Shown: positions 42,488-57,511, numbered from the stretch's first letter. The stretch: 64,000 nucleotides of DNA from an archaeon (GCA_035291225.1 DATDSO010000004.1:490765-554764), one strand, 5' to 3'. Translations and numbers: made by a program. The notes: generated by a model not told the origin, from the letters alone.

Positions 42488-43345
42488 ATGCGCAAATATC
42501 ATTTTATGTCGTTCAAAGAAAAATTGTCATTGGAATTGAAAGGGAGAATGGATGAAAAAGAACTAAAGCTTCTGCCAGCCGGCTGCCGCTTTATAGGTAG
42601 TGTTATTATTCTAAAGCTGCCGCCCGCACTTTTGAAAAGGAAAAAAATCATCTGCTCTGAAGTTTTAAAATTTTTTCCTTATATGAAAACTGCCTGCATA
42701 GAGGAAAAAATTTTTGGCTCAAGAAGACAACCGAAAATAGAAGTTATTGCTGGCGCGCGCAAAACTGAAACAATTTTAACCGAGCATGGCTGCCGCTTGA
42801 TTATGGATCCTGCGAAAGTCATGTTTTCTGTTGGAAACAAATTTGAGAAAGAGCGCCTGCTAAAAATCTGCAAACCAAATGAAACAGTAGTGGATATGTT
42901 TGCAGGAATTGGCTATTGGACAGTTCCGATTGCAGAATTCTGCCGGCCAAAGAAAATTTTTGCGATAGACAAAAATAAAATTGCTGTGGAATATTTGGAA
43001 AAAAACTGCAAGCTGAATAAAGTTTCTGGGAAAGTTGAAATTTTGCAGGGTGATTGCAGGAAATTTTCACATATTCTAGAGTCAAAAGCTGATAGAATAA
43101 TAATGGGCTGGATTTTTGAAACGGAAAAGTTCCTTCCTTTTGCTTTGAGAATAGCAAAAAAGAAATGTACGATACATTTTCACAGGATTTTGCACCCTAG
43201 CGATTTGCCGGCTTTGAAGAAAAGGATTTTGCTTATAGCAAAAAAACAAAAATGCAAAATTAAATTTTCTGCTGTGCGGCAGGTTAAAACTTATTCGCCG
43301 AGGCAGAGGCATTTTGTTTTGGATATTATAGCTTTAAAATCCTAA
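42488..43345 (+). CDS. Class I SAM-dependent tRNA methyltransferase, Trm5/Taw2(TYW2) family
   Basis: Met-10+ fold motifs VVDMFAGIGYWTVPIA, DKN. Confidence 0.8.
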   Translation: MRKYHFMSFKEKLSLELKGRMDEKELKLLPAGCRFIGSVIILKLPPALLKRKKIICSEVLKFFPYMKTACIEEKIFGSRRQPKIEVIAGARKTETILTEHGCRLIMDPAKVMFSVGNKFEKERLLKICKPNETVVDMFAGIGYWTVPIAEFCRPKKIFAIDKNKIAVEYLEKNCKLNKVSGKVEILQGDCRKFSHILESKADRIIMGWIFETEKFLPFALRIAKKKCTIHFHRILHPSDLPALKKRILLIAKKQKCKIKFSAVRQVKTYSPRQRHFVLDIIALKS

Positions 43346-44141
43346 AATCAATCCTAACTTTCTGCAGCCGCGGCGCATAAGGCAGAACTTTCTGCCGGCC
43401 AATAAATTTTATTTTTGTTTTATGGCTGGCGCAGATTTTCTTTATTTTTGCTTCGACATCAGCAAACAAATTTTTCTGTTCAGAAATCGCATAGACTTGA
43501 ATAGTTGCTCTCTCTTTTGTTCCACGCTTCGCCCATGCGAGCGCTTCGGGCAGAAATTCTAGGCTGCTTTCAGGAAGTGGCATAATAATTCTGTCAAATT
43601 TATAAACCTGTTTAGAAAGACACTCTCCATCGCTAACATCTCCATAAATATTTTCCGCGTTGCTAATTTTATTTAGTTTCAAATTTTCATCAGCATACTT
43701 TACAGCAATTTTGTTAAGTTCAATTCCAACAACTTCACACGATGGGCGGGCTTTTCCAATATACACCAACAAAGGCCCGATGCCGGAAAACATTACAAGA
43801 ACTCTTTCTTTCGGCTTTACTAAAGCAGCAATACGCGCCCGCTCCTCTGATTCTCGTGGGGAAAAATAAACTTTTCGCGGATCCAGCTTGAAAAGAAATC
43901 CATGCTCCTTATGCAAAACTTCTGTATTCTTAGAGCCAGCCAGAAGTTTTAATTTATAAATCCTGAATGCGCCAGCGCGGCCGGAAGTTTTTCCCAAAAC
44001 TGTTTTCACGTGCGCGTGGCGGCGTAAAATTTCACGCGCAATTTCTTTTGTGTTTTTCTTTTTGTAAATGTCTACAACAGCAACAGCTCTGCCGGCTGAG
44101 CCGATTAAATCGTATGCAATTCTGGTAGCGGGGTTTCGCAT
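43326..44141 (-). CDS. Second Trm5/Taw2(TYW2)-family methyltransferase paralogue (convergent with the first)
   Basis: Motifs VLVMFSGIGPLLVYIG, ELNK. Paralogous to 42488..43345. Confidence 0.78.
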   Translation of the reverse strand: MRNPATRIAYDLIGSAGRAVAVVDIYKKKNTKEIAREILRRHAHVKTVLGKTSGRAGAFRIYKLKLLAGSKNTEVLHKEHGFLFKLDPRKVYFSPRESEERARIAALVKPKERVLVMFSGIGPLLVYIGKARPSCEVVGIELNKIAVKYADENLKLNKISNAENIYGDVSDGECLSKQVYKFDRIIMPLPESSLEFLPEALAWAKRGTKERATIQVYAISEQKNLFADVEAKIKKICASHKTKIKFIGRQKVLPYAPRLQKVRIDFRILKL

Positions 44142-44848
44142 GAACGAACTTGAGGCGCAGTGTTAAAAGCTTTTTGCTTTCTACATGGAACATCAATTCC
44201 CAAGAATGATTCTGGTGAAATAACATTTAGAGGGTTAGTTTCTCCTCTAGAATTGTATTGTAAAGACATATTATCACCATCGACCTTTATTTCAAGCCTG
44301 CGTCTAACTATACCTAGAAATGCCGGATCATATGTCATTATAGTAACATCTCCGCATGCCCTCGCAATAAAAGCATGAATATCATCTTCTACTCTTTCCA
44401 TGAATTCGCGCCCCACATCAGTTTCATATAATTTTTCAAAAAGTTTTCTTGCCATAAGATTTTTCTTTCCTAATTTCATTTTCTTATAACCATCCAGACC
44501 GCCTATGCACAAATCAAAATATTCTTGCAGAGAGGCGCAGGGTCCATCACGTCTTTTCTGTGCTTTTGACACGATGGAACTATAAGTTTGTTCCGCGCAT
44601 AATTCAGAAATAAATATTGTTCTTTTTTCTTCAACTAGCCTGTCAAATGCTCTGGCAACATTTTCGTAATTTTTTGCATGCTCGCAGCTTTCCATTTTCA
44701 GAAGAGTTAGCAATACAGAAGCGTCTACATAGACAGATTTTACTTCCCCTCTCGGTAAATACGATATATCCATCTTTTTGCATGGGCGCGTTTCTTCAGT
44801 AATGTTTGGCAGAACAACTGCCCGATAAAAATCTGTCCCAAAAGGCAT
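44105..44848 (-). CDS. PIN-domain protein (putative ribonuclease) with C-terminal extension
   Basis: Acidic residues in PIN order: VYVDASVLL, ISELCAE, EDDIHAFIA, TYDPAF. The true start is probably internal (MDISY...). Confidence 0.6.
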   Translation of the reverse strand: MPFGTDFYRAVVLPNITEETRPCKKMDISYLPRGEVKSVYVDASVLLTLLKMESCEHAKNYENVARAFDRLVEEKRTIFISELCAEQTYSSIVSKAQKRRDGPCASLQEYFDLCIGGLDGYKKMKLGKKNLMARKLFEKLYETDVGREFMERVEDDIHAFIARACGDVTIMTYDPAFLGIVRRRLEIKVDGDNMSLQYNSRGETNPLNVISPESFLGIDVPCRKQKAFNTAPQVRSCETPLPELHTI

Positions 44849-44890
44849 TGAATGCGTTTAATTTAAAACCTTAAAAATCCATTTTTCTCT

Positions 44891-45616
44891 ATGCTTTACC
44901 TAATAGGTCTTGGTATTGGGAATGAGAAAGATTTGACTCTGCGGGAAATAGAAATCGCGCGCACGTGCGAGTGCTTTGCAGAGCTCTACACAAGCAAGTG
45001 GGTAGGCTCGCTTGCAGAGCTTGAGAGAATGATAGGGAAAAAAATAAATCTATTGAAAAGAAATGAAGTTGAAATAAAAGTTTCTGATATTCTAGATATG
45101 GCAGAAAAAAAAGATGTTGCTGTATTTTTTCCCGGCGATCCGCTTGCTGCAACAACTCATACGGAATTTTTAATTTCTGCCAGAGAAAGAAAAATCCCTG
45201 TAAAGGTTTTGCACAACAGCTCGATTTTTTCCGCTGTTGCTGAAACAGGCTTGCAGCTTTACAAATTCGGAAAAACTGCTACAATTCCTTTTTCAGGAAA
45301 GCTTGAGAATATGAAAAATATTTTGAAAGAAAATAAAAAAGTTGGGGCGCATACGCTCCTGCTTTTGGATTTGGATGCAGAGGCAGGCTTGTATATGAGC
45401 GCAGCGGATGCCGTAAAAATTCTTTTGAAAGAAAAAATTCTGAAACCTTCTGACAAAATCGTTGCAGCGGGCGCGCTCGGGACAGAAAATTCTGAAATTG
45501 TTTTTGCGCCGGCAAAAACTTTACTGGAGAAAGAAATTTCAACGCCTGCTGTGCTAGTTGTTTCCGGGAAACTTCATTTCAGGGAGAAAGATTTTTTGGA
45601 AACGATTAAGGTTTAA
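44891..45616 (+). CDS. dph5: Diphthine synthase
   Basis: Tetrapyrrole-methylase fold, N-terminal MLYLIGLGIGNEKDLT. Confidence 0.88.
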   Translation: MLYLIGLGIGNEKDLTLREIEIARTCECFAELYTSKWVGSLAELERMIGKKINLLKRNEVEIKVSDILDMAEKKDVAVFFPGDPLAATTHTEFLISARERKIPVKVLHNSSIFSAVAETGLQLYKFGKTATIPFSGKLENMKNILKENKKVGAHTLLLLDLDAEAGLYMSAADAVKILLKEKILKPSDKIVAAGALGTENSEIVFAPAKTLLEKEISTPAVLVVSGKLHFREKDFLETIKV

Positions 45617-45648
45617 ATACCTATAATTAGAAATCAGGATGTGAAATT

Positions 45649-45885
45649 ATGTCAACGAGAGCATTGCACCCTGTTCCTATGAATTTAACTCCAGAAGAAA
45701 TTACAGCAAGAATGAATATTCTTGGAGGAGGACGTATGGTGAGGCGGGTTTATTTGGAAGCCGCGCCTCCATCTTACGAAAGAGACGGCGTGCCTATGCA
45801 AAATGTTATTGTTGTTGAATACCATGACAAGCCAAAAGATTTCAGACCTCAACCTCGAATAGATGGCATAGATTATGTGAGGTAA
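45649..45885 (+). CDS. Hypothetical small protein
   Basis: 78 aa, first gene of a co-directional block. TATA at 45612-45619. Confidence 0.4.
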   Translation: MSTRALHPVPMNLTPEEITARMNILGGGRMVRRVYLEAAPPSYERDGVPMQNVIVVEYHDKPKDFRPQPRIDGIDYVR

Positions 45886-45917
45886 TTTTTCTGTCAAATA
45901 TTGTAAAGCCTGAAGAT

Positions 45918-46148
45918 GTGACAAAATGGCTTGAAAGAATTGAGAATGTTTTGGAAAATATTTCTTCGCTTTCAGAAAAAGGTGAGGAAGTAATTGAAAA
46001 TGCGCGCGCTTATGTTTCTGACTGCAGGCATTTTTTTGAAAAGGAAAATTTAGTTCTGGCTTTCGAATGCATGGTGCATGCCTGGGCAATTTTGGAAACC
46101 GCGCGCGAGCTTGGGGCAGTTGATTTCGAAAACAACAAAACTTTATGA
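45918..46148 (+). CDS. Hypothetical small helical protein
   Basis: 76 aa. Confidence 0.45.
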   Translation: MTKWLERIENVLENISSLSEKGEEVIENARAYVSDCRHFFEKENLVLAFECMVHAWAILETARELGAVDFENNKTL

Positions 46149-46294
46149 ATTCTTTCACTCCCAATTGGTGCCGAAAGCTTTAAATACTACCTCTGTACAT
46201 ATATTTGATAGAGTTTTGTTATCCTTTCAGGATGATAAAACTTCAGCGGCTTTAGGTTTAAATCCTTTGCCACTGAACGAAATTAAAACAAAAT

Positions 46295-47065
46295 GTGATT
46301 AAAATGCCACAAAATCAATCGGTCAATATTGCAATGCCGGCTGGAATGGTCGAAGCTTTACTGGAAAGAATAGATGCTCTAGGGCAGCCAAAGAAAGTTG
46401 AAGACTTCAGAGATGTAGAAGTTTTGGATAAAATCGGAAATGTAGAAAAACATATTATTAATCCTTTAATAGGAAGAGACAGGCCGGGGTTAGATTATGG
46501 CGACTGGATAAATGCATTAAGGCCAGCTGCTTATTTTGATCCTAGGAGTGGCGCTAGACTTCCTGGTTGGAAAGGAACTGAATCTTTTGAGGAATGGGGA
46601 ACACGTTTGGGTGCTTCAAGTCTTGTAGCAATCCCTGTTTTGGGAGCGGCTGCGGTAGTTTACGGTTTCGAGACTGGAGGCAAACCTTCGAAGGCAGAAC
46701 AGGTGATAAGTAAATTGAAATACGAGCTTGATGAAAATGGAAAACCTGTTGCTGACAAGCTTTCTCCAGAATATATTTCAGGAAAAGTAAAATCAAATGC
46801 AACATTCATGGCGATTTATGGAAATGAAGAGGAAAGAGAAAACAGTCTTTCAATTCTTGCCGAACTTAAAGCATATGAAGGTGATTTGAAAGCTGTTCTT
46901 GAAGGTGGTGGAGCAAGCGCTGCTTACAGTGTTGGGCAGGAAGATGAAGAAGGCGGTTCAGCTACTTACGGAACAACTTCAGGAGAACTCCCGTTGACTT
47001 ACGGGAATGTTGATTTAATGCCTGCGATGAAACATATTTTGGAATGGCAGGCAAACTTAGAATAA
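46295..47065 (+). CDS. Hypothetical protein with one TM segment
   Basis: 256 aa. GTG start in the track; ATG at 46304 is also possible. Confidence 0.55.
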   Translation: MIKMPQNQSVNIAMPAGMVEALLERIDALGQPKKVEDFRDVEVLDKIGNVEKHIINPLIGRDRPGLDYGDWINALRPAAYFDPRSGARLPGWKGTESFEEWGTRLGASSLVAIPVLGAAAVVYGFETGGKPSKAEQVISKLKYELDENGKPVADKLSPEYISGKVKSNATFMAIYGNEEERENSLSILAELKAYEGDLKAVLEGGGASAAYSVGQEDEEGGSATYGTTSGELPLTYGNVDLMPAMKHILEWQANLE

Positions 47066-47093
47066 TAAATTTTTAAAAAAGGAGGTAATAAAA

Positions 47094-48764
47094 ATGCAAA
47101 ATCAAAACCAAGGTCAAAGAAATCAGGTGGATCCTGTTTTATGGAGAGATGCCCTAGCTCAGGTGAACGCGAGAGAGATCTATTTTTCTAGGAGACATGG
47201 ACAGGGTGCGGAAACTTATGTTACACAACACTCTCAGGAAATAAAAGCAGAGATAGAGAGGGCGGCAAAAAAAGATTTTGAAGATTATCAACGAATGCAT
47301 CCGGGTGCCAAACCGGGAGAAAAGGCAAACCGCCTTAGAGCAATGGTTGGGGACGCTGTTGAAACAGTTGTTCCAAAATATTTGAGAACCGGCTTGGGTG
47401 TTTCAGATCCGTGGATGGAAAGATTTGCAAAAAGTTATTTCAATGAGCTTGAATGGATTGATGTTGGAATCGAAGAAAATGGGCAAGCTGAATTTACGAC
47501 CGGAACTTTGCTCAAACCTGGTGCAAAACCTGTTGGTGAATTGTATGATGAAGAATATTCAGCATACATTACCCAGGCTGTTGCCGGAGTCTATCAAAAT
47601 TTGTTCCAGCAAAGACAAGCAGTTCAAGCACAGGCTGCGGCAGCCGCGCCTCGCAGAGGCCGCGGACGCAGAGAACGTTCTGCTGCTGATACATACAGAG
47701 CTGAATTAAGAGAAGATCTTGGAGTTGGAACTCAGAATGGAAGAGCTTCCTACAAATCAGATGAGCAGGTTTTCAGATATCTTTTGAAGCTGATAAACAG
47801 CGATGTGGATGGAGTTGAGGTAACTCGCGCAGATGGTGTTGCTCACGAAACAGCAGATTTCCTTAACACAGTTGCAAAAGCAAAAATCGAGCCTATAACA
47901 GGAAGAAAAGGAAAGCATTATCTGCTTAAACTTTATGACGACGAGAGAAAATTGGTTGGAGTCGGCTATAAAGTTGGAAACGAAGTTAAATTCAGAAAGT
48001 ACAGCACACCAGTTGAACGGGATGAGGAATTTTTACACATAAGATACGACGGTTCAAGCGGAGTGAAAGTTAAAACAAAGCAGCTTGAAGCCCGCGGAGC
48101 AAGGAGAGATAAAGACTTTGTGGTTTTGGAAGAGGGTGGAATATTCAAAGCTCCTTTGATAATTCCTTTGACAGACAAAGGATACAGGATGGCAGAAAAA
48201 GTTTACGATAGAAACAAAAGAAATAAGAAAGCCTTTAAATGGGGATACGGAGTTGGCAGCGGTACTGGCCTTGGTTTACTTGGAGCAACAGTAGCAGCAG
48301 GCGTAACAGGTGGAACACTGGCATTTCTGATTCCGCTTTATGCGGCAGTTGGTTCAGCAGCCGGTGCTGTGGCTCGTGGAGAAAGTCTGATAAACGACCG
48401 CGAAAACAGAACATTAATTCGTGTAGCGCAATCTCTCGGTACCACCTTCAATCCTCGACAGCAAAGTGAAGAGGACGGAGGCAACGAAGCTCCTGCACCT
48501 CAAGCACCTATAGTTCAACCGCCAACGCAAGAGCCTCCAACACCACCGGCGCCTCCAGCACGCAGACCAAGAACTTTGATAGATAGAAATGGCGAAACTG
48601 AAAACCAGCCTGGAGAAACAGACCCGAGAGAAGCAGCTATGGAAGCCTTAAGAAGTGTAGATGGCCTAGTTAACGAAACAGCACCAAAAGCTCTGGTAAG
48701 AAGAATTAGAAGAGAAGTTCGTAGACCAATTGCTGAAGATGTGGAAGCTGCGGCAGCTCAATAA
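47094..48764 (+). CDS. Hypothetical protein (556 aa) with Gly/Ala-rich hydrophobic segment and Pro-rich C-terminal region
   Basis: SD-like GGAGG upstream. Locally elevated GC. Confidence 0.6.
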   Translation: MQNQNQGQRNQVDPVLWRDALAQVNAREIYFSRRHGQGAETYVTQHSQEIKAEIERAAKKDFEDYQRMHPGAKPGEKANRLRAMVGDAVETVVPKYLRTGLGVSDPWMERFAKSYFNELEWIDVGIEENGQAEFTTGTLLKPGAKPVGELYDEEYSAYITQAVAGVYQNLFQQRQAVQAQAAAAAPRRGRGRRERSAADTYRAELREDLGVGTQNGRASYKSDEQVFRYLLKLINSDVDGVEVTRADGVAHETADFLNTVAKAKIEPITGRKGKHYLLKLYDDERKLVGVGYKVGNEVKFRKYSTPVERDEEFLHIRYDGSSGVKVKTKQLEARGARRDKDFVVLEEGGIFKAPLIIPLTDKGYRMAEKVYDRNKRNKKAFKWGYGVGSGTGLGLLGATVAAGVTGGTLAFLIPLYAAVGSAAGAVARGESLINDRENRTLIRVAQSLGTTFNPRQQSEEDGGNEAPAPQAPIVQPPTQEPPTPPAPPARRPRTLIDRNGETENQPGETDPREAAMEALRSVDGLVNETAPKALVRRIRREVRRPIAEDVEAAAAQ

Positions 48765-48803
48765 TAAATTTTTATTTTTTAAATTTTTTTACCTAAAAAA
48801 TAA

Positions 48804-50852
48804 TTGGTGTTTTTCATGGCCGAACAAAAATTAGTTTCACAAAAAGCAGCAGGCGTTATGTCCAGGCTTAGAGGCAATTCTTTTTACAATCTTCAAGATC
48901 CAACGGCGGATAGAAGATTTCTTTCTGAAGCGACTGCATATGTTGAAGATGGGCTCGGCAGAAATATTCCGTCAGGGCAAATCGCAGACGGGCTTGTCGG
49001 ATTAAGAAATGCGCATTATGGTTCTCAAAGGGCCACAGCAGTTTATGTTGTGAATGCTAGACAAGCGAAACCTTTGGCGGATTCTATAAAAAATGTAAAA
49101 GGCGAGAAGCCAACTGAAGTTTACAACTTTCATTTCAAGGAGCTTCCGGATGGAAAATTCAGAGTGAGCGTTGAAGCTTCTCTTGATGGCGCGATTCAAA
49201 TTAAAAATAGATTTCAATCTCAGTTAATCGACGCAGGTTTTGCCGATCTTGGAAAAAAGAAAGCGGAATTTTCTAAGGTTCAGCAAGGATTGGCTGAGCA
49301 CCAGGAAAAACTTTCTAAAAGGGAAAAAGCCCTTGCTCAGAAAGAAAAAGAAGTTAAAGATGCTGAAGCGCTTGTTGTTGAAAAGGGAAAATTTATTGAA
49401 GATGAAAAAACCGCCAAAGACGAGATACAATTTCCTTCTTACATAAGAAAGAGGCTGGATGCGGAGGCAAAAGATAAAAAATTCAAAACAAAACTAGACT
49501 ACTTAATGAGCGAAGATGGAAAGAAAAGAGTTGAGCAGATAGGCGAGGCTCTAAAAGCACTTGACGAATACGAGCCAATAATTCGCAAAAATTTAAATGG
49601 AGAATATAGCAGAAGTGGTGCTTATGATGAAATTTTGTCAGATGCTCCAAAAGCTGCTGAAAGACTAAATCAGTTCGGCCCGCTTGCTAAGAAAATGAGC
49701 AGAATGACAAAAGGCCAGAAAGGGGTTTTGAGGCAGAGATTGAAAGTTGATACTGAAGAAATTTTTAATGCTGATCCCAGCAAAGCTCTGGATGAAGCGA
49801 AAAAAATCAGAGGGGCAAAACTAACAAGCCTGAAAAGTTTTGGCGGGTGGAATGTCGAAGCGGTTGATTATTTGCTCAGCATGTTAGGAGACCAGAAGAA
49901 TAACGCTAATGCTGATGAATATAAAATTTATTTAGAAGCTTCTCTTAAACGCGGAGTTTTCGGAAGATATAATTTTAGAGAAGATGTTCCTGTTGGAATT
50001 GCGGAATGGTTTAGAAGTGAATATCAAGAAGCTAAAGATTATTTGAAAGCTGGCGGGACTGAGCCTGTTGTACAGACTGTTGCCAAAACACCTGCTCCAG
50101 CTGTTCAACCGCAGAAAATGAGAAAAGCTTTGAAAGGAACTTGGGCGAAGACTCATCCTGCAGAGAAACCGGTTTACAGAGTTGATGTTGATTTGGGCCC
50201 TTTGAAAGCTTACATAAAGCGCAAAAATACATTCCCAGATGATGTGAAAGTTGTTACTGAAAAAGATGGTTCAAATTATGTTACTGGAGATAAACAGAAA
50301 GTTGATGCTTTTGTAAAAGAATTGAACAAACCTCAGCAACCCAATCAAGAAGCGGAAACTAAAAAAGGAAAGAGAACATTTACAATGAAACAAGAAGATG
50401 CTGAAAAAATAAAAAGGCGCGACAAAACTTTTGGCCAATATGTTGTCGGCATTAAAGATGGAAGAGTCAGACTTGCTGTTCCAGAAGGAGAATATGAACA
50501 ATTCGTAGGAAGATATAATCTGCGTTCGGTAAAACCTGCGGCAACTAAAAAGAGAGAACCTGCAGCTGTAAAAAAAGAGGTGCGAAAACCAATTATAGCG
50601 TATGTTCCAAAAATTAAAGTTCTTGAAGCGGCAAAAAGAGATGATGGAATATTTTCTCATTTCAAAGGACCTATTGATAAAAAAGGAAGAATTCCGTTAG
50701 AGATAGAAGCTGGCGGATTGGAAGCTTTTGAAAAAAGATATGGCATCCAATTTGGAACAGCTCAAAGAAAAGTCAAAGAAGTTTCTGATGCAGATGCCCA
50801 AAAACTTTTAGAGCGAGCAGGAAAAGCTGCATTAGCAGATAAAGGAAAGTGA
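48804..50852 (+). CDS. Hypothetical K/E-rich coiled-coil protein (682 aa) carrying an RDKTFGQYV module
   Basis: C-terminal KIKRRDKTFGQYVVGIKDGRVRLAVPEGEYEQFVGRYNL is paralogous to the C-terminus of the next gene. Confidence 0.6.
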   Translation: MVFFMAEQKLVSQKAAGVMSRLRGNSFYNLQDPTADRRFLSEATAYVEDGLGRNIPSGQIADGLVGLRNAHYGSQRATAVYVVNARQAKPLADSIKNVKGEKPTEVYNFHFKELPDGKFRVSVEASLDGAIQIKNRFQSQLIDAGFADLGKKKAEFSKVQQGLAEHQEKLSKREKALAQKEKEVKDAEALVVEKGKFIEDEKTAKDEIQFPSYIRKRLDAEAKDKKFKTKLDYLMSEDGKKRVEQIGEALKALDEYEPIIRKNLNGEYSRSGAYDEILSDAPKAAERLNQFGPLAKKMSRMTKGQKGVLRQRLKVDTEEIFNADPSKALDEAKKIRGAKLTSLKSFGGWNVEAVDYLLSMLGDQKNNANADEYKIYLEASLKRGVFGRYNFREDVPVGIAEWFRSEYQEAKDYLKAGGTEPVVQTVAKTPAPAVQPQKMRKALKGTWAKTHPAEKPVYRVDVDLGPLKAYIKRKNTFPDDVKVVTEKDGSNYVTGDKQKVDAFVKELNKPQQPNQEAETKKGKRTFTMKQEDAEKIKRRDKTFGQYVVGIKDGRVRLAVPEGEYEQFVGRYNLRSVKPAATKKREPAAVKKEVRKPIIAYVPKIKVLEAAKRDDGIFSHFKGPIDKKGRIPLEIEAGGLEAFEKRYGIQFGTAQRKVKEVSDADAQKLLERAGKAALADKGK

Positions 50853-50859
50853 TTATTCT

Positions 50860-51768
50860 ATGAAACGAGCAGAACTCGCTCGTCAGATGCTTGATGTTTT
50901 TCTTAAAGAACAGCCGCATTTGAAATGTTTGTTTGATTACGTACCTAGGGGAGATATTGAAACTTACGTAGCTGAAGAATTAAAAAAGAAAGTCCCGGTT
51001 GAAAATATTTATTCTGGATTGAAAGAAAAATTGGATAAAGCGCGAGCAGAGCAAAGCGTTGAGCTTCCTCCTTACCAGGCGAGTTTAGACGAGATCAGAA
51101 TGCAATTGGAAAGTGAAGGTATAAATGACATTTTTCTTAGGCAAGATGATGAAGGCAAAGTTATTGCACGCGTTTCGAGAAGTTACGCAAAAGCAGGAAA
51201 GTTGGCTTTGGAAAATATGGAGCTTCAAAGAAAAGTTGACCTCCTTGCTTCTGAAACTGAAGATCGGAAACTTCGGTTAGTGGAAGCTAAAGATGAAACA
51301 AAAAAAATGAAAGAGTACTCTGAAAGATTTCTCACAAGTGTTTATGCTAATTTCTTTAGAAGAGGAAAAAATTTTGTTGTAGATGGTTTGCGCAGACTTT
51401 ACAAAGTTAAAGAGAGAGAAGCAGAAGCGGGCGAAGCAGCTAAAAAAGCGACAGCGGAGAAAGAAAGATTGGAAGCGGAAGGAAGCAGATTAGAAGCAGA
51501 AAAAAAGCAGTTAAATGCTTTAAGCCAACAACTTGGTGAAAGAGAGTCTGCGGTCTCTGCTGCTGAAAAAAAACTGCCGAAAGAAGGAAAAATAATTTTT
51601 AGAATGGAACAGAATGTTGCAAGAGGCATTGCCCAGCGCGACAAAACTTTTGGCCAATATGTTGCCAGCACCAAAGATGGGCTCGCTGAAATTAGAGTCA
51701 ATCCCAGCGAATTAAGTTCATTTATGGAAAAATACAGACTGCAGTTGGCAGAGCAGGCGGCCGCTTAA
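50860..51768 (+). CDS. Hypothetical coiled-coil protein with the RDKTFGQYV module
   Basis: IAQRDKTFGQYVASTKDGLAEIRVNPSELSSFMEKYRL. Confidence 0.6.
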   Translation: MKRAELARQMLDVFLKEQPHLKCLFDYVPRGDIETYVAEELKKKVPVENIYSGLKEKLDKARAEQSVELPPYQASLDEIRMQLESEGINDIFLRQDDEGKVIARVSRSYAKAGKLALENMELQRKVDLLASETEDRKLRLVEAKDETKKMKEYSERFLTSVYANFFRRGKNFVVDGLRRLYKVKEREAEAGEAAKKATAEKERLEAEGSRLEAEKKQLNALSQQLGERESAVSAAEKKLPKEGKIIFRMEQNVARGIAQRDKTFGQYVASTKDGLAEIRVNPSELSSFMEKYRLQLAEQAAA

Positions 51769-51845
51769 GAAATAAAATTCTTTTGAATTTTAACAGAATT
51801 TCGTGGTACAATAAGGTTTAAATCCTTTTCGTTCCTATTAATTCT

Positions 51846-52700
51846 ATGCCACCACGAGGTAGTTTAGGGTTTTCAAATGAGACCGCAAGGAATATTTTTC
51901 AGTCAGCGGCGCGCGGAGATTCGAAAAGGAATTATTCTTACGGTATTGGAAGAATCCCAGAAGCAGTTGGAACAAAGTTTGTTTTTTATTATTTGAGAAA
52001 TCATGGAGAAAATCCAAATGAAATCGTGGATTTTCTCCGCAATCGTGCGCTTCACGGGCAGGGAGAAAGAATTGTTTATCCAACTGAACTTAGAGAACAT
52101 CTGGAAGCCGCGCTGAAATTTTATAAAATTCCTGTTGGAGTTGAAGATGAGCATGCGGGCATTTCCATTATTTCTGTTCCAAAAGGCTCTGTTCACATTG
52201 CGCGTGAAATCGGCGGGTATCTGATGATTGACAGTTTGAAAAAAAGAGGGCAGGATATTCCGAAGAATGTAGAAACAGAAATCGCGGCAGAACTGCTTTT
52301 TGTCCTGCAGGAAAGGAAGGAAGCCGATGATATTTCTAAAGTTTTAAAAGAAGCTTTAGGCTTACAAAAAAAACAAGGAGGAGATGATATGGTAACAAGA
52401 CAAGAGGCTGAGGCAATCGCATCAGCTTTCAAGGAAAGGGCTAGACGAGTGTATCGTGGACAAGAGGAAGTGAAAAAAGGAAGAGAAGGTTTGGATGCAT
52501 ACGAGAAGCAAATGGCAGTTGATTTGGGTCAGGCGCTTGGCGCTGTTCCCGGAGTTCCGCCAGTTGCTGATGGAGAAACAGTAAGAACTTATGCAGCCAG
52601 AGCTATTCCGGCCGCGGTACAAGAGCTCGATGCAGTTGCAAAAGCACTAAAAGATGCAGCAGAATTCGATCCGAGCCAAGAACCACCTAAAGAAAAATAA
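51846..52700 (+). CDS. Hypothetical protein
   Basis: 284 aa. TATA GTTTAAATCC at 51816-51825. Confidence 0.55.
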   Translation: MPPRGSLGFSNETARNIFQSAARGDSKRNYSYGIGRIPEAVGTKFVFYYLRNHGENPNEIVDFLRNRALHGQGERIVYPTELREHLEAALKFYKIPVGVEDEHAGISIISVPKGSVHIAREIGGYLMIDSLKKRGQDIPKNVETEIAAELLFVLQERKEADDISKVLKEALGLQKKQGGDDMVTRQEAEAIASAFKERARRVYRGQEEVKKGREGLDAYEKQMAVDLGQALGAVPGVPPVADGETVRTYAARAIPAAVQELDAVAKALKDAAEFDPSQEPPKEK

Positions 52701-52718
52701 TAATAAAATTGATTTAAA

Positions 52719-53549
52719 ATGGCAGCAGAGGGAAGCTCGCTCTTAGAAAGAGCTAGGGAAGCTGCGCGCAGCTTTGTAGAAGGGCGGCGCGCGCTTTATC
52801 AAACTGAACAAGATTTGGCTAGACGCGAGGCTGATTTAGAACGACGCGCAAGAGTTTTGTCAGAAGGAACTGCTGCCATTGTTAATGAATTAGAAGGATT
52901 AGGAATTTCTCCGGGAGGAGAAACATTTCCAAATTATCTGAAAAGGGGTTTTGAAGAGATTAGAGCAAGATTAGAATCTCTTCCGTACAGCGGACCTGCA
53001 GAAAAAAGATATCCAGAACCGCCACCCTTTTCACCACCTACTACATCTCCGGCGCCCGGATTCGAAGTTGATTCGTCACCTGCAGCAGTGGATGAAGTCG
53101 CGCATGGCGCTGCAGGCAGCGCGAAAAAAGAAGAAATGCCCGAAGGTTTTGTTATGGGTGGGGTCGATACTGGAATGGTTTATGGGCCAACAGGAATTGA
53201 CGAAACTGCAGTTTATGAAGATTTGATAAGCAGAATGCATTCAGCTCTAACTGGCGTTGAAGGTGCTCCTCCTAAAAAAGATGGAGAGCCGAAAGAGAAA
53301 TATTTTGCAAGGCTTTCGCAATTTTTGATTTCACACGCTCCAGAAATCGAAAAAACCTTCAGTGACGAGATATCTCTTCTTGAAATATCTCGCGAAGATT
53401 TAAAAAGTATTTCTAAAGAACATCCTGAGGTATCCAACTTCAAAAGCGTAAAAAAATTAGATAAAAGTCGGTCTGTACAACTTTTTGTGCCATCAGCATT
53501 AGAAAGGCTTTACAAAAATAGATTTGGATTTGGAGACGACTCCAGTTAG
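52719..53549 (+). CDS. Hypothetical protein with Pro-rich linker
   Basis: 276 aa. Confidence 0.55.
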   Translation: MAAEGSSLLERAREAARSFVEGRRALYQTEQDLARREADLERRARVLSEGTAAIVNELEGLGISPGGETFPNYLKRGFEEIRARLESLPYSGPAEKRYPEPPPFSPPTTSPAPGFEVDSSPAAVDEVAHGAAGSAKKEEMPEGFVMGGVDTGMVYGPTGIDETAVYEDLISRMHSALTGVEGAPPKKDGEPKEKYFARLSQFLISHAPEIEKTFSDEISLLEISREDLKSISKEHPEVSNFKSVKKLDKSRSVQLFVPSALERLYKNRFGFGDDSS

Positions 53550-53591
53550 CATCGTTCTAAAGCTTTTAAATAATATCCGCAGGATATTTTC

Positions 53592-54203
53592 ATGGCAGAT
53601 GTTGTAAATATCTCAAGCTTGATTTTTCAGATTCTGAAAATTTCCCCGCAGCTGATAAGCAAGTATCCGAATTTTCAGGACCAGCTTTTGAATTTGGTTT
53701 TCATTCCACATATAATTCTTATACTTTTTCTGATGGCTTTTTCCGGAATGCTGATTTCAAGAATTTTGAAAACCCCTCACATGGGAATGAAAATTTTAAT
53801 TGGCATCGCCGCCTACTTATACATAGTGTGGGCGGGTTGGTATGGAACATGGTTGCTGCCTTTGGTCAATGCCTATTTCCAAATTGCGCTGATAGCCGCA
53901 ATAATATTTTTCGGAATAAGCATTTTCTGGCATCCAGCTTCGCATGAAGCAACTTTGAAACTTTTGCAGGCAGGAGCAGAGGAGGTCGGCAAGAGAACAA
54001 TTGGAAAATCAAAGGACAGGGAAAGGCTGGAAAAAGAATTGAGGTCTGTAAGAGAATCAATAAAGACTGCTGAAACTAAGCTAGAAAATTTAGAGGCTCA
54101 GGGAATGGGCGGCTCTTATCAGGCTGCTGCACTGCAGCAGAGAATTGAAGAGTATGAAGAAATGGCGCGAAAATTGAAAAGAGCAATAGAGGAGAATGAA
54201 TGA
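53592..54203 (+). CDS. Membrane protein (4 TM) with C-terminal coiled coil
   Basis: TATA at 53563-53573. Confidence 0.55.
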   Translation: MADVVNISSLIFQILKISPQLISKYPNFQDQLLNLVFIPHIILILFLMAFSGMLISRILKTPHMGMKILIGIAAYLYIVWAGWYGTWLLPLVNAYFQIALIAAIIFFGISIFWHPASHEATLKLLQAGAEEVGKRTIGKSKDRERLEKELRSVRESIKTAETKLENLEAQGMGGSYQAAALQQRIEEYEEMARKLKRAIEENE

Positions 54204-54684
54204 AATGGCCGCATTCGCATTTGATTTTTCAAACCAGCAGTTCCTGATTACTTTTCTTTTTACGCTCGCGGTGATTTTCGGGGTTCTTGAATTGGGCGGG
54301 CCGTTCAAAAAAAATCGCGCAGTAAATGCTGTGATTGCATTTGCGATTGCTGTTTTTGGCGCAAGCTATGGGCCGTTCCAGACCGCTTTGTGGGGCGTGC
54401 TTCCAAACATAACTTGGTTTTTTATTGTAATGTTTTTCATCGCTTTCACCCTTGAACTTTTTGGCGCAAGAAAAGCCGGAGGCGGCGGACTGGAAGGGAT
54501 GATTACAACAGCTGGGGTGTTGATAGTTTTGATGGCTTTGGGCTGGACAATTTTACGGCAGTTTCCGGTTCAGCTTCCTTTTATCGGCGGCGGAGAGAAC
54601 TTGCTTTTCCTGATAGGATTCCTTTTCGTTATTTCGCTTTTTTGGGCAGCAATGAAAATGGGCGGCGGGAAGGGCGGAGAATGA
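54196..54684 (+). CDS. Small polytopic membrane protein, member of a tandem paralogue array
   Basis: 162 aa, 4 TM, Gly-rich C-terminus. Confidence 0.55.
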   Translation: MNEMAAFAFDFSNQQFLITFLFTLAVIFGVLELGGPFKKNRAVNAVIAFAIAVFGASYGPFQTALWGVLPNITWFFIVMFFIAFTLELFGARKAGGGGLEGMITTAGVLIVLMALGWTILRQFPVQLPFIGGGENLLFLIGFLFVISLFWAAMKMGGGKGGE

Positions 54685-54714
54685 AAGAATTTAAACACAG
54701 AGAATAATTAATTT

Positions 54715-55239
54715 GTGATAAAAATGGCAGGCATTGTTGAATTTGTTGAAACTTTAAGGAGCGCGGGCTTTGGGCTGGTTTTCCTTTGGCTGCTTACGCT
54801 TTCAATTGTTTACGGGATACTTTCGCATATCGGAGGAGGACTGCCGCGCTCAGTCAGTGCGCGAGGAATAATTTCAATTTCAATTTCATTTTTGGTTTTG
54901 CTTGCAGCAAGCGGGCCCGCAACTGCTGCTTTTCTTTCCAATTTAACAAGCTCGCTTGTTATAATCGCTTTTGGAATTTTGATCACAATGATTTTCCTTG
55001 AGATGGCTGGGGTAAAAGTTGGAGAGAAAGGGTTGCATATTTTCCACCAGCATGGAACCATATTCGGAATTGCGCTGATTGTACTTATTGTTTTAATTTT
55101 CATCGGCGCGGGCGGATTGAAGTTGGTTGGGCTCCCGACAATAAACATAACCGGAGAAATCGCCGCGCTGGCGCTTTTCATAATAGTTATGGTAGCTGCG
55201 ATTTATCTTTTATATACTGAAACAACAAAAAATAAGTGA
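54715..55239 (+). CDS. Small polytopic membrane protein, paralogue 2
   Basis: Shares LWLLT-x-SIVYGILSH...R-x-IISI block with the next two genes. Confidence 0.6.
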   Translation: MIKMAGIVEFVETLRSAGFGLVFLWLLTLSIVYGILSHIGGGLPRSVSARGIISISISFLVLLAASGPATAAFLSNLTSSLVIIAFGILITMIFLEMAGVKVGEKGLHIFHQHGTIFGIALIVLIVLIFIGAGGLKLVGLPTINITGEIAALALFIIVMVAAIYLLYTETTKNK

Positions 55240-55817
55240 ATATTATGGCATTAGAAACTTTAACTCAACTTGAGAGATTGGGATTTCCGGATTTGCTTTT
55301 GTGGTTGTTGACTTTTGCGATTGTTTATGGAGTCTTGAGCCAAATCAAGATGCCAAAATCTGCGGCCTCGCGCGCAATTATCGGAATTGTTTCTGGGCTT
55401 TTTGTTTTGATGTTCGCGCCCGCAACTCTGATTTCTATTATTTCGAAAATGTCTACAAATTTGATTTTGCTGGTTTTAGGGTTGCTTGTTGTGATTATTT
55501 TCTTGGAAGCGAGCGGGGTTAAAGTTGCTCATGGGGAAATCGTTGCGTCACAGGGCGGTAAACCTGTCTACGTGAAAAATAAGAAAGTTAGCAGAGGCGC
55601 AGAATCTGTTTTCAGAAAACACTCAGTTGAATTTGGGATTTTAATTCTGATTTTGGTGGCTTTGGTATTTATTGGATCTGGCGGATTAAGTATCCTAGGA
55701 ATACAAAATATAAATTTCAGTGAAGGCAATATATTACCTATAGGAGTAATTGTTCTGGTTCTGTTAGCAGTATTATTCTTATACTCTGAAAAATCTGGAG
55801 ACGAGGGTGAGGAGTGA
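55236..55817 (+). CDS. Small polytopic membrane protein, paralogue 3
   Basis: LWLLTFAIVYGVLSQIKMPKSAASRAIIGIV... Confidence 0.6.
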   Translation: MNIMALETLTQLERLGFPDLLLWLLTFAIVYGVLSQIKMPKSAASRAIIGIVSGLFVLMFAPATLISIISKMSTNLILLVLGLLVVIIFLEASGVKVAHGEIVASQGGKPVYVKNKKVSRGAESVFRKHSVEFGILILILVALVFIGSGGLSILGIQNINFSEGNILPIGVIVLVLLAVLFLYSEKSGDEGEE

Positions 55818-56361
55818 TTTTATGGCTATAGATTTATCAACTTTGCAAAGTTTAGGTCTGCCGGAAATAACTTTATGGCTACTCAGCTTTGCGATTCTTT
55901 ACGGATTAATGAGTCAGGTAAAGATTCCGGAATCTCAGGCAGCGCGCGCAATAATTTCGATTGTGATTGCATTTTTTGTAATTCTTTCCGCGCCCCTTGC
56001 TTTAACAAATGTCCTTTCCAAAATGACATCGAGTCTAGTCATCGTGTTGATAGGAATAATTGTACTGCTTATTTTTGTAGAAGTGGCGGGAATAAAATCA
56101 TATAAAACAGTTCCCGTTATTGATGAAAAGGGAAAAGAAACAGGAAAACTGGAGCATGTAAAAGTCCCCATTTTTGAAGCGTATGGATATCTTTTTGTTG
56201 CGGCATTTCTTGCAATAGCTGCTCTTATTTTTGTAAATTCTGGCGGCCTCCAACTTTTAGGTTGGAATTTTAACTTAAGCCCAGTAGCTAGCACAACAAC
56301 AATATTTTTAATTATTATAATCATCGCAATTGTATGGATGGTAGGCGAGCGCAAGAAATAA
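55807..56361 (+). CDS. Small polytopic membrane protein, paralogue 4
   Basis: LWLLSFAILYGLMSQVKIPESQAARAIISIV... Confidence 0.6.
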   Translation: MRSDFMAIDLSTLQSLGLPEITLWLLSFAILYGLMSQVKIPESQAARAIISIVIAFFVILSAPLALTNVLSKMTSSLVIVLIGIIVLLIFVEVAGIKSYKTVPVIDEKGKETGKLEHVKVPIFEAYGYLFVAAFLAIAALIFVNSGGLQLLGWNFNLSPVASTTTIFLIIIIIAIVWMVGERKK

Positions 56362-56398: not shown

Positions 56399-57511
56399 AT
56401 GCACCCAGAAGCGGTTGAATCTCTCAAAGAAATTTCTGAAGATTTGCTGAAAGAATTTCCCGGAGCTATAAAAGCAATCTGGGTTTATGGCTCGGCTGCG
56501 CGCGGAACAGCAAAGCCGACTTCTGATATTGACATGATGGTTTTGCTTGATGATGTGCAGAAAGAAATTTCTTCCGGAATAATTGAAATGATTGACGGGC
56601 GTCTGCTTGAACTTACGAAGAAAATGCAAAAAGAGAAAAAGGTAAACTTTCACGCGCAGGCACCGAAAAAATTGAGCGACTGGTGGGATCTGCTCAGAAG
56701 CGGCGAGCCGTGGGTTTTCACTTCAATGAGAGATGCGATCCCAATTTACGACCCTTCTGGATATATTGAACCAATTCAACGCCTGCTTTCCGCAGGAAGA
56801 ATGCACGGAACTTGGGAGCGCAGCCACATGCTTATTGAGCGCGCGCCCTTCCGCTTGCAAAGCGCGAGAAAAATCTTTATTGAGGAAATTACAGCAGATT
56901 TGCTTTCCGCAATGGTTGATTCATCGCATGCAGTTTTAATGTACGCCGGCACTGCGCCGCCATCTGCTCCACAGATAGGGGCTGAGATGAGAAGGCAGTT
57001 CTGCGAAAAGAATTTATTGGAGCCCGGCTTTCCTGAATTATATGAAGACTTTTTCGAAACTGTGAAGAAGATAGAGCATGGTGAGATGACTAAAGTTTCT
57101 GGGAAAGAATTGGACAAATGGATTGGCCGTACAAAAGCTTTTATTATTCGCATGGAAGGTTTGTTCGCTGTGCTCGAAACGGAGAAGAAAAAGGAATTAA
57201 TAGAGGAAGCTTACAAGGAAAGCACAGAAGCCTGCAGTTCTGCTTTGGGAAAGCTCGGAGTCTCTGTTGAGGAGGAAAAAGAAATTTTAAAATTCGTGGA
57301 GAGCCATCTGATAAAGCCGGGGCATGTTTCAAAAGCTTACATGGAAATTCTGAAAAAGATTTTCTCAATGAAGGATGCGCTCGAGTCTGGAAAACTTTCT
57401 GAACTGAGCGAAAAGGATATATACAGCTCGCATATGTACGCGAAAAATCTGCACTCTGCATTAGACGAAATAAAAATAAAACCGAGGGATAAACATGGAA
57501 AGCAAAGATAA
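56399..57511 (+). CDS. Pol-beta-superfamily nucleotidyltransferase with C-terminal helical (HEPN/KNTase_C-like) domain
   Basis: GS-x9-DID motif (YGSAARGTAKPTSDIDMMVLLDD). Confidence 0.7.
   Translation: MHPEAVESLKEISEDLLKEFPGAIKAIWVYGSAARGTAKPTSDIDMMVLLDDVQKEISSGIIEMIDGRLLELTKKMQKEKKVNFHAQAPKKLSDWWDLLRSGEPWVFTSMRDAIPIYDPSGYIEPIQRLLSAGRMHGTWERSHMLIERAPFRLQSARKIFIEEITADLLSAMVDSSHAVLMYAGTAPPSAPQIGAEMRRQFCEKNLLEPGFPELYEDFFETVKKIEHGEMTKVSGKELDKWIGRTKAFIIRMEGLFAVLETEKKKELIEEAYKESTEACSSALGKLGVSVEEEKEILKFVESHLIKPGHVSKAYMEILKKIFSMKDALESGKLSELSEKDIYSSHMYAKNLHSALDEIKIKPRDKHGKQR

What the first reader, a model, noticed from the sequence alone, without database searches (positions are those of the whole stretch)
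45649..53549. Compact co-directional block of eight uncharacterised proteins with a duplicated RDKTFGQYV module and locally elevated GC
Genes are tightly spaced, often with less than 40 nt between them, and all are on the plus strand. The 682-aa and 302-aa proteins share a C-terminal module: RDKTFGQYV-x-(I/T)KDG-x-(V/A)-x-(L/I)-x-V-x-P-x-E...F-x-(G/E)(R/K)Y-x-L. Several members are K/E-rich coiled coils, two have single hydrophobic segments, and one has a Pro-rich tail. Parts of the block (about 47.6-48.7 kb) are visibly more GC-rich than the surroundings. No protein in the block carries a motif I can name. The block sits between dph5 and a membrane-protein array. Candidate roles include a cytoskeletal or envelope scaffold, a secretion substrate set, or a degraded integrated element. 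I saw no integrase or capsid.
Basis: partly seen in the sequence, partly recalled or inferred. Interest (0 to 1): 0.7.

Follow-up and report, generated by a model that had tools for sequence, protein, structure and literature searches.

The report
Lineage-specific orphan gene island, DPANN archaeon
Six of the eight genes are real protein-coding genes with no detectable relatives, found only in this one small groundwater archaeon, where they fill a gap that holds a single gene in related genomes; this is a tidy example of genomic "dark matter", not a recognisable new machine.

Summary
g1 and g2 (g2 is Pfam DUF357) belong to the conserved dph5 neighbourhood. Only g3-g8 (46295-53549) are the unusual part.

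In 8 related Aenigmatarchaeota-like loci the gene order is TYW2, Trm5b, dph5, DUF357, then one 247-288 aa protein, then the membrane array m1-m5. The window instead has six genes (7.4 kb) in that slot, and none of them is detectably related to the protein the relatives carry there.

g4 and g5 have no homologues in 5.8 billion proteins. An exhaustive HMMER search of 1.84 billion cluster representatives with g5 returned only g5 itself and g6. Pfam, PHROGs, NCBIfam, PADLOC, PDB, IMG/VR and phage searches were all negative.

The GC "elevation" reflects amino-acid composition: block GC and window GC are both 0.414, and codon usage is native. There is no integrase, att repeat or tRNA.

Best reading: a native, lineage-specific accessory island encoding two membrane-anchored and four soluble proteins. 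Function is unknown. Interest is modest.

The parts
44891..45616 (+). dph5 (diphthine synthase). Conserved left anchor, not part of the island.
   Evidence: Pfam TP_methylase on the called gene. Named diphthine synthase by NCBI. 55-85% identical orthologues sit in the same position in relatives.
45649..45885 (+). g1: a 78-aa small ORF between dph5 and DUF357. It is a variable micro-slot.
   Evidence: No family match. It is absent from the 8 distant relatives, where DUF357 starts about 20-30 nt after dph5. L007 and L008 carry unrelated 86- and 96-aa ORFs here. A TATA-like AGGTTTAAAT lies at 45609-45618.
45918..46148 (+). g2: a DUF357 family protein. It is a conserved neighbour of dph5, not part of the island.
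   Evidence: Pfam PF04010, E=3.4e-14, 53 bits against a cut-off of 29.4. 42-82% identical orthologues sit in the same place in L007-L009, L012-L014, L017-L019 and L022.
46295..47065 (+). g3: 256 aa from the GTG start, or 253 aa from the ATG at 46304 that gene callers use. It has one transmembrane segment (aa 104-128) and is acidic. It occupies the position of the relatives' slot protein.
   Evidence: hhalign against the slot family gives E=0.043-0.15, which is not significant, although the aligned order is collinear. A promoter-like AGGTTTAAAT lies at 46254-46263. No Pfam, PHROG, NCBIfam, PADLOC, PDB, IMG/VR or phage match.
47094..48764 (+). g4: 556 aa, with a Gly-rich hydrophobic hairpin at aa 393-427 and an Arg/Gly/Ala-rich linker. 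It also has a Pro-rich stretch at about aa 455-500. A GGAGGT ribosome-binding site precedes it.
   Evidence: The only match among 5.8 billion proteins is the protein itself, NCBI VI933_03200 [archaeon]. No IMG/VR relative. Its low-complexity segments account for the GC peaks.
48804..50852 (+). g5: 682 aa from the TTG start, or 678 aa from the ATG at 48816. It is very basic (net charge +33), with a long predicted helix at aa 127-193 and two C-terminal modules.
   Evidence: Only self matches in the word-indexed search. The exhaustive HMMER search of 1.84 billion representatives returned only a g5 fragment and g6.
50364..50543 (+). Module copy 1 (g5 aa 521-580). Predicted topology is beta-alpha-alpha-beta-beta-alpha, with RDKTFGQYV at the alpha1-alpha2 junction.
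50583..50753 (+). Module copy 2 (g5 aa 594-650), divergent.
   Evidence: Smith-Waterman z=6.6 against copy 1, with 0 of 200 shuffles reaching the score. AF2 gives the same predicted topology at pLDDT 80-87. It is weak in the two-copy HMM (score 4.3), so support comes from the shuffle test plus the fold.
50860..51768 (+). g6: 302 aa, starting 7 nt after g5. It is K/E-rich and carries a C-terminal module, making it a partial paralogue of g5.
   Evidence: P0004 is g6 read from a later start. No family match.
51580..51762 (+). Module copy 3 (g6 aa 241-301).
   Evidence: phmmer domain E=1.3e-13.
50417..50445 (+). 29-nt exact DNA repeat, copy A. It encodes RDKTFGQYV in g5.
   Evidence: (D3). There are exactly two copies in 64 kb, against 0 expected.
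51636..51664 (+). 29-nt exact DNA repeat, copy B. It has the same codons and the same frame in g6.
   Evidence: All 9 codons are identical (P about 5-8e-4). Outside the core, only 9 of 18 conserved residues share a codon.
51846..52700 (+). g7: 284 aa, soluble, with its own promoter-like AGGTTTAAAT at 51814-51823.
   Evidence: No family, PDB, IMG/VR or phage match. It was not searched against the large protein collections.
52719..53549 (+). g8: 276 aa, soluble and acidic, with a Pro-rich middle. It has a weak similarity to g7.
   Evidence: The g7-g8 match is BLASTP E=0.012 and phmmer domain i-E=0.05, which is not significant. No family, PDB, IMG/VR or phage match.
53592..56361 (+). m1-m5: the conserved membrane-protein array. 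It is the right anchor and not part of the island.
   Evidence: Orthologues at 37-52% identity occur in the same order in 12 metagenome loci and L009. m3, m4 and m5 are paralogues of each other. No Pfam or NCBIfam family.

Best explanation
g3-g8 (46295-53549) are a lineage-specific accessory gene island. It fills a conserved variable slot in an Aenigmatarchaeota-related DPANN archaeon from aquifer groundwater.

Shown:
- Relatives keep the order TYW2, Trm5b, dph5, DUF357, one 247-288 aa slot protein, then m1-m5.
- This genome instead has six genes in the slot, with no detectable relatives there or anywhere else that was searched.
- The six are genuine genes adapted to the host genome. They are long ORFs with native codon usage, host-type TATA-like promoters before g3 and g7, and a Shine-Dalgarno site before g4.
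- g5 and g6 are partial paralogues. They share a roughly 60-aa module present three times, and its core is identical at the nucleotide level.

Inferred:
- The island grew at least partly in place by tandem duplication and rapid divergence.
- Its products form a complex on the cytoplasmic face of the membrane. g3 and g4 would be anchored by internal hydrophobic segments. g5-g8 would be soluble, helix-rich and strongly charged: g5 +33, against -13 for g3 and -11 for g8.
- This complex extends or replaces the role of the single slot protein of relatives, presumably together with the adjacent m1-m5 membrane proteins.
- The module, a small beta-alpha-alpha-beta-beta-alpha domain in tandem, is the likely interaction unit. 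It would bind nucleic acid or acidic partners, or mediate oligomerisation.

The biochemical function remains unknown.
For: Synteny and slot size. DUF357 and m1 lie 0.85-1.3 kb apart in L009, L012-L014, L017-L019 and L022, against 7.4 kb here.

No g3-g8 relatives within +/-10 kb in those loci.

Orphan status. Family scans were negative.

Real, native genes: block GC equals window GC, GC1>GC2>GC3, and synonymous usage scores of -0.93 to -1.07 fall within the range of the rest.

Stability: the island is present and 99.995-100% identical in contigs from several independent samples.

Duplication.

Membrane anchors, charge and absence of signal peptides.

Module fold.

The slot is variable elsewhere too. 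Extra 87-110 aa ORFs and hypervariable C-terminal tails occur in the relatives' slot proteins. The nearest relative, L007 (dph5 85% identical, DUF357 82%), has an unrelated 186-aa ORF after DUF357.
Against: - There is no direct evidence of expression, of any protein-protein interaction, or of any link to m1-m5 beyond adjacency and shared strand.
- g3 could not be linked to the slot family (hhalign E=0.15), so the idea that it replaces the slot protein rests on position only.
- In-place origin is supported only for the g5/g6 pair. The g7/g8 similarity is not significant.
- Horizontal acquisition from an unsampled element cannot be excluded.
- The AF2 models are single-sequence, and everything outside the modules is low confidence (mean pLDDT 52.6).
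- All available copies are clonal, so purifying selection could not be measured.
Confidence: 0.4

Rival explanations
1. The island is the remnant, or a domesticated part, of an integrated mobile element or virus of this DPANN lineage. It would have been inserted between DUF357 and m1, displacing the slot gene, and have since lost its integrase and ends.
For: - The pattern is presence here and absence in all relatives, at a fixed site.
- All six genes are orphans, as is typical of archaeal virus genomes.
- g3 and g7 have their own promoters.
- The canonical slot gene is missing from the slot.
- g4 gives a very weak tape-measure hit, PHROG 305 at E=0.1, which is not significant.
Against: - No integrase, recombinase, capsid, terminase or replication family was found in the block or next to it.
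- There are no flanking direct repeats and no tRNA in 64 kb.
- GC and codon usage are indistinguishable from the host's.
- There are no relatives in IMG/VR for any of g3-g8.
- Phage tblastn with g3, g7 and g8 found nothing, and BFVD fold matches were not significant.
- The promoters match the genome's general consensus.
Confidence: 0.22
2. The block is a nucleic-acid-binding system. g5 and g6 would be KH-like RNA- or ssDNA-binding proteins tethered near the membrane, for example for RNA localisation, nucleoid attachment or DNA uptake during symbiosis.
For: - The modules are in tandem, as KH domains often are.
- g5 has a net charge of +33.
- The most conserved motif, RDKTFGQYV, sits at the alpha1-alpha2 junction. 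In KH domains the nucleic-acid-binding loop lies there (plus general knowledge of KH domains).
Against: - There is no GXXG loop.
- No Pfam KH match appears even when the module is scanned alone at E<=10.
- The model comes from a single sequence.
Confidence: 0.15
3. The ORFs are non-functional: decaying or spurious reading frames in a rapidly evolving intergenic region.
For: There are no homologues anywhere, the proteins contain low-complexity segments, and the block is absent from relatives.
Against: - Six consecutive ORFs of 253-682 codons with no frameshift or stop lie in a 41% GC genome, where about 6% of random codons are stops.
- The GC1>GC2>GC3 pattern and native codon usage are those of coding sequence.
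- Gene spacing is tight, and promoter and SD signals sit at the expected distances.
- The module is conserved at the protein level between g5 and g6 despite divergent codons outside the core.
- AF2 folds the modules at pLDDT 83-87 from single sequences.
Confidence: 0.04

Closest known systems
Strain- or lineage-specific variable gene islands of orphan genes, such as flexible genomic islands at fixed syntenic hotspots in prokaryotes
   Same: The island sits at a fixed position between conserved anchors, DUF357 and m1. Gene content at that position differs completely between lineages, and the content is all orphan genes. The neighbouring micro-slots (g1, and the 247-aa ORF at 44105-44848) vary in the same way.
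   Different: There is no mobility gene, no tRNA or repeat boundary and no compositional deviation. The content is not the usual surface-glycosylation, defence or transporter cargo. It is embedded co-directionally in what looks like a conserved membrane-protein gene cluster.
Aenigmatarchaeota slot protein family (alignment A3; 29 unnamed members, one of them from Candidatus Aenigmatarchaeota)
   Same: g3 lies in exactly the same position, directly after DUF357. It is of similar length (253 against 244-288 aa), with a helical N-terminus, a 'PGL' motif near residue 60 and a hydrophobic segment near residues 105-128. hhalign aligns 97 columns in collinear order.
   Different: The match is not statistically supported (hhalign E=0.043-0.15, hmmsearch score below 0). 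The family's invariant MDLRG..WNYG.GW.SALKGG.N core is absent from g3. The family was not found anywhere in the 64-kb window.
Type I KH domain (beta-alpha-alpha-beta-beta-alpha nucleic-acid-binding fold)
Pfam DUF357 (PF04010), for g2 only
   Same: g2 matches over its full length above the gathering threshold and is syntenic with DUF357 genes in the relatives.
   Different: Nothing differs. g2 is an ordinary member, and this removes it from the 'uncharacterised novel block'.

Membership tests
Pfam DUF357 (g2) | Match to the PF04010 profile above the gathering score | tested here: met
   53 bits against a cut-off of 29.4, E=3.4e-14, profile positions 2-72 of 73.
Aenigmatarchaeota slot-protein family A3 (g3) | Significant profile match, including the invariant MDLRG-WNYG-GW-SALKGG-N core | tested here: not met
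   hhalign E=0.15 and probability 0.4%. hmmsearch score -1.5. The core motif is absent from the g3 sequence.
Aenigmatarchaeota slot-protein family A3 (g3) | Genomic position immediately downstream of DUF357 and upstream of m1 | tested here: inconclusive
   g3 directly follows DUF357, as the family does in 8 loci. However, five further genes separate it from m1.
Type I KH domain (g5/g6 module) | beta-alpha-alpha-beta-beta-alpha topology | tested here: met
   In the AF2 single-sequence model: E9-15, H16-25, H29-32, E33-37, E40-46, H47-56, and the same again for copy 2, at pLDDT 80-87. This is a prediction only.
Type I KH domain (g5/g6 module) | Significant structural match to solved KH domains | tested here: inconclusive
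Type I KH domain (g5/g6 module) | GXXG loop between alpha1 and alpha2 | tested here: not met
   The junction reads R-R-D-K-T-F-G-Q in g5 and Q-R-D-K-T-F-G-Q in g6, with no GXXG.
Type I KH domain (g5/g6 module) | Match to Pfam KH profiles | tested here: not met
   No KH family appears even at E<=10 when each module is scanned alone.
Integrated provirus or mobile genetic element | Integrase, recombinase or transposase in or beside the element | tested here: not met
   None in Pfam, PHROGs or NCBIfam for g1-g8 and flanking genes.
Integrated provirus or mobile genetic element | Flanking direct repeats (att) and/or a tRNA target | tested here: not met
   No boundary repeat pair in 44800-54400. No tRNA gene in the 64-kb window.
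Integrated provirus or mobile genetic element | Hallmark structural or replication genes, or relatives on viral contigs | tested here: not met
   The best PHROGs hit is E=0.029, to a family of unknown function. None of g3-g8 has a relative in IMG/VR. Phage tblastn was negative for g3, g7 and g8. BFVD gave no hit at E<=1e-3.
Integrated provirus or mobile genetic element | Compositional deviation from the host | tested here: not met
   GC is 0.414 against 0.414, and codon usage is within the host range.
Integrated provirus or mobile genetic element | Presence/absence polymorphism relative to related genomes | tested here: met
   Absent from all 8 relatives that cover the slot, and not collinear with L007.
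Known anti-phage defence systems (PADLOC) | Match to any defence-system protein model | tested here: not met
   Only one insignificant hit, g6 at E=0.035.
Sec/Tat-secreted substrate set | N-terminal hydrophobic signal segment | tested here: not met
   No 19-residue window with Kyte-Doolittle mean >=1.5 occurs near any N-terminus of g3-g8. The only hydrophobic segments are internal ones in g3 and g4. This is a crude test, and no dedicated predictor was available.

The most novel reading that the evidence does not exclude
The island is either the first glimpse of a virus or mobile element specific to this Aenigmatarchaeota-like lineage, now fixed in the chromosome, or a set of proteins born and expanded de novo at a recombination-prone slot. 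In the second case it would include a new KH-like domain family that tethers nucleic acid to the membrane complex m1-m5 of a DPANN symbiont.
Probability: 0.15. Interest if true: 0.65.

Novelty: new member of a known kind. Interest (0 to 1): 0.3.

Why it matters
If the reading is right, the locus is a clean natural example of how a very small (about 0.87 Mb) symbiont-type archaeal genome still invests 7 kb in proteins found nowhere else. These genes sit at a defined hotspot between conserved anchors and show an internal duplication caught in the act.

That makes the locus a usable case for studying gene birth and turnover in DPANN archaea. It could also give a handle on the unknown but conserved DUF357, slot protein and m1-m5 cluster of Aenigmatarchaeota.

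It does not reveal a recognisable new machine.

Tried and rejected
1. Sequence homology. Word-indexed searches with g5 and g4 found only the proteins themselves. The exhaustive HMMER search with g5 found only g5 and g6.

2. Family libraries. Pfam, PHROGs, NCBIfam and PADLOC gave nothing for full-length proteins. Pfam on ten separate domain-sized pieces at E<=10 also gave nothing.

3. PDB sequence searches with g3-g8 and with the slot family found nothing.

4. Viral origin. Six IMG/VR scans, three phage tblastn searches and a BFVD fold search were all negative.

5. Linking g3 or the L007 186-aa ORF to the conserved slot family with 8- and 29-sequence profiles was not significant. Shuffle-tested Smith-Waterman of g1 and g3 against their L007/L008 positional counterparts was also not significant.

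6. I looked for the module in g8, g4, g7, in the relatives' slot proteins and in their extra small ORFs. Nothing passed the shuffle tests.

7. My by-eye impression of a shared N-terminal helix-turn-helix-like domain in g5, g6 and g7 was not supported by Smith-Waterman or phmmer.

8. dN/dS from strain variants could not be done. Every other copy recovered (L001-L006, L023) is 99.975-100% identical.

9. Diversity-generating retroelement. The only repeat is the 45-nt D3, and its four mismatches are not adenine-specific, so I rejected this idea. I did not scan the whole window for a reverse transcriptase.

10. The Foldseek search against AFDB50 was unavailable.

11. Rfam found no RNA family in the window.

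12. Literature searches on DUF357 and on DPANN hypervariable regions returned nothing relevant.

Full report
**What is there**

The window is archaeal. The same sequence occurs in contigs from aquifer-groundwater metagenomes (record names such as ANAN16-1, SRR2090155 and SRR3989338) and on an 873,710-bp contig that NCBI labels only '[archaeon]'. The nearest named relatives of its dph5 and of the neighbouring gene family are Candidatus Aenigmatarchaeota.

Eight + strand ORFs occupy 45649-53549:
- g1, 78 aa
- g2, 76 aa
- g3, 256 aa (253 from the ATG start)
- g4, 556 aa
- g5, 682 aa (678 from the ATG start)
- g6, 302 aa
- g7, 284 aa
- g8, 276 aa

Gaps between them are 7-155 nt. The ORFs are clearly coding. 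About 6% of random codons are stops at this composition, so 682 open codons have a probability of about 1e-19 (my inference). GC1>GC2>GC3 and synonymous codon usage match the rest of the window.

**Checking the stated features**

The module shared by the 682-aa and 302-aa proteins is real: BLASTP E=4e-12, 36% identity over 98 aa, and phmmer domain E=1.3e-13.

g5 contains a second, more divergent copy at aa 594-650. Smith-Waterman gives z=6.6, with 0 of 200 shuffles reaching the score. The predicted fold is the same as copy 1. The module therefore occurs three times.

I found no further copy in g3, g4, g7 or g8, in the rest of the window, or in relatives.

Within the module, the RDKTFGQYV core is encoded by a 29-nt stretch that is identical in g5 and g6. 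It occurs exactly twice in 64 kb, in the same codon phase. All nine codons agree, with a chance probability of about 5-8e-4. Outside the core, only 9 of 18 conserved residues share a codon. The simplest explanation is a short gene-conversion tract between tandem paralogues. A constraint at the nucleotide level cannot be excluded.

Hydropathy shows one internal transmembrane segment in g3 (aa 104-128) and a Gly-rich hydrophobic hairpin in g4 (aa 393-427). g5-g8 have none, and no protein has an N-terminal signal-like segment. g5 is very basic (net +33), while g3 (-13) and g8 (-11) are acidic.

The 'elevated GC' is local. It reaches 0.47-0.52 at 47.45-48.65 kb and 0.48 at 52.4-53.3 kb. These peaks coincide with the Ala/Pro/Gly/Arg-rich low-complexity stretches of g4, g7 and g8. 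Averaged over the block, GC is 0.414, the same as the window, and GC3 is if anything lower than elsewhere. It says nothing about foreign origin.

**The block is not one unit**

g2 is an ordinary DUF357 protein (Pfam, 53 bits against a cut-off of 29.4).

I used dph5 as an anchor in the species-representative genomes and m1 as an anchor in metagenomes. This recovered 15 related loci.

In the eight loci that cover the region (L009, L012, L013, L014, L017, L018, L019, L022; dph5 55-58% identical), the order is TYW2, Trm5b(-), dph5, DUF357, one protein of 247-288 aa, then m1, m2 and m3/m4/m5. DUF357 and m1 lie only 0.85-1.3 kb apart there, against 7.4 kb in the window.

g1 is absent from these loci. 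L007 and L008 have unrelated small ORFs in its place.

g1 and g2 therefore belong to the conserved dph5 neighbourhood. The anomalous part is g3-g8.

**The slot**

The single protein of the relatives defines a small family of 29 members, all unnamed. It has a coiled-coil N-terminus and an invariant core, EPGLQDD..AFRMFT...MDLRGLIWNYGLGWISALKGGYN. Its C-terminal half is hypervariable, and three loci have an extra 87-110 aa ORF.

g3 sits in the same position and has a comparable layout, but profile comparisons are not significant (hhalign E=0.043 and 0.15). The family is not found anywhere in the window.

The closest relative, L007, has dph5 85%, DUF357 82% and Trm5b 76% identical to the window's. 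It loses all similarity about 57 nt after DUF357 and carries an unrelated 186-aa ORF there.

This position is therefore a hotspot of gene turnover, or of extremely fast divergence, in the whole clade. The window's lineage has the largest content seen.

**Homology and structure**

g4 and g5 find only themselves among 5.8 billion proteins. An exhaustive HMMER scan of 1.84 billion cluster representatives with g5 returns only a g5 fragment and g6.

The following gave nothing significant for any of g3-g8:
- Pfam, PHROGs, NCBIfam and PADLOC, full length and by domain
- PDB sequences
- IMG/VR

Phage genomes gave nothing for g3, g7 and g8, the three proteins searched there.

AF2 on g5 alone is poor overall (mean pLDDT 52.6) but folds both modules at 72-84. 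Run in isolation, aa 515-655 give pLDDT 80-87 per module, each with beta-alpha-alpha-beta-beta-alpha order.

**Mobile element?**

Only the presence/absence pattern and the orphan status of the genes support this idea.

Against it:
- no integrase or other mobility or viral family
- no boundary repeats
- no tRNA in 64 kb
- native composition
- no viral relatives

g1, g3 and g7 are preceded at 27-45 nt by AGGTTTAAAT. One-mismatch variants of this motif occur elsewhere in the window, some of them just upstream of other genes. g4 has a GGAGGT site. The likely transcription units are g1-g2, g3-g6 and g7-g8 (inferred).

**Mechanism I commit to (confidence 0.4)**

This is a native, lineage-specific accessory island. 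It arose at least partly by tandem duplication (g5/g6).

Its products would assemble at the cytoplasmic face of the membrane. g3 and g4 would act as anchors. g5-g8 would be soluble, helix-rich, oppositely charged partners. The tandem small alpha/beta modules would serve as interaction units.

The complex would extend or replace the role of the relatives' single slot protein next to the conserved m1-m5 membrane proteins.

Shown: synteny, orphan status, coding quality, the duplication, the hydrophobic segments and the charges.
Inferred: the assembly, the link to m1-m5 and any ligand.

Rivals:
- mobile-element remnant, 0.22
- KH-like nucleic-acid-binding system, 0.15 (this can overlap with the main model)
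- junk, 0.04

**Limits**

- AFDB50 was unavailable.
- All other copies of the locus are 99.975-100% identical, so selection could not be measured.

**Verdict**

It is a well-delimited example of DPANN genomic dark matter at a variable hotspot. It is of modest interest unless expression data, interaction data or a mobile relative turn up.

Noticed in passing
window 53592-56361; L009, L011-L022: The gene cluster DUF357, a roughly 250-aa slot protein (invariant MDLRG..WNYG.GW.SALKGG.N core), m1 (3 TM segments plus a C-terminal coiled coil), m2 and two to three paralogous membrane proteins of about 175-190 aa is conserved in order across 12+ Aenigmatarchaeota-like loci. None of these proteins has a Pfam or NCBIfam family. 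It looks like an undescribed conserved membrane system of this clade.
   Followed up: partly
window 44105-44848 (-): A 247-aa ORF with no family match lies between Trm5b and dph5. It is absent from all relatives, where Trm5b and dph5 are adjacent. L007 instead has an unrelated 198-aa ORF between TYW2 and Trm5b. This is a second small variable slot in the same neighbourhood.
   Followed up: partly
window 42488-43345 (+) and 43326-44141 (-): Two paralogous Trm5/TYW2-type methyltransferase genes converge and overlap by 20 nt at their 3' ends. The arrangement is conserved in the relatives.
   Followed up: no
window 60771-60972, inside the ORF at 60676-61287: There is an imperfect tandem repeat of a 24-nt unit, also scored with periods of 48 and 72 nt. 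It has about 8.7 copies at 76-78% match, inside a 203-aa ORF with no family. This gives a repetitive 8-residue (KKKDPFQD-like) protein segment.
   Followed up: no
window 45609, 46254, 51814, 31661 (exact); 41507, 46176, 40033, 60577 and others (1 mismatch): The motif RGGTTTAAAT(N)C lies 27-45 nt upstream of start codons and looks like this organism's BRE/TATA promoter consensus. Three of the four exact copies of the AGGTTTAAAT core lie in the block, before g1, g3 and g7.
   Followed up: partly
window 56399-59592: Downstream of the membrane array there is a nucleotidyltransferase (NTP_transf_2/Polbeta) followed by four more ORFs with no family (256, 129, 79 and 202 aa). None was found within 10 kb of m1 in the relatives' loci. 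The dark, poorly conserved region therefore extends well beyond the reported block. ThiI (59589-60236, -) and FtsZ (61817-62977, +) follow.
   Followed up: partly
L012 6023-7861: In relative L012 the Trm5b homologue appears as two pieces, tblastn hits at 6023-6274 and 7373-7861, separated by about 1.1 kb. This suggests an insertion or disruption there.
   Followed up: no
L012 9686-9949; L013 967-1299; L017 1504-1821: Extra small ORFs (87-110 aa) sit between the slot protein and m1 in three relatives. The L013 and L017 copies look homologous by eye and contain an internally repeated '...VPLA.KP...QY' motif. This is further evidence that the position accumulates new small genes.
   Followed up: partly
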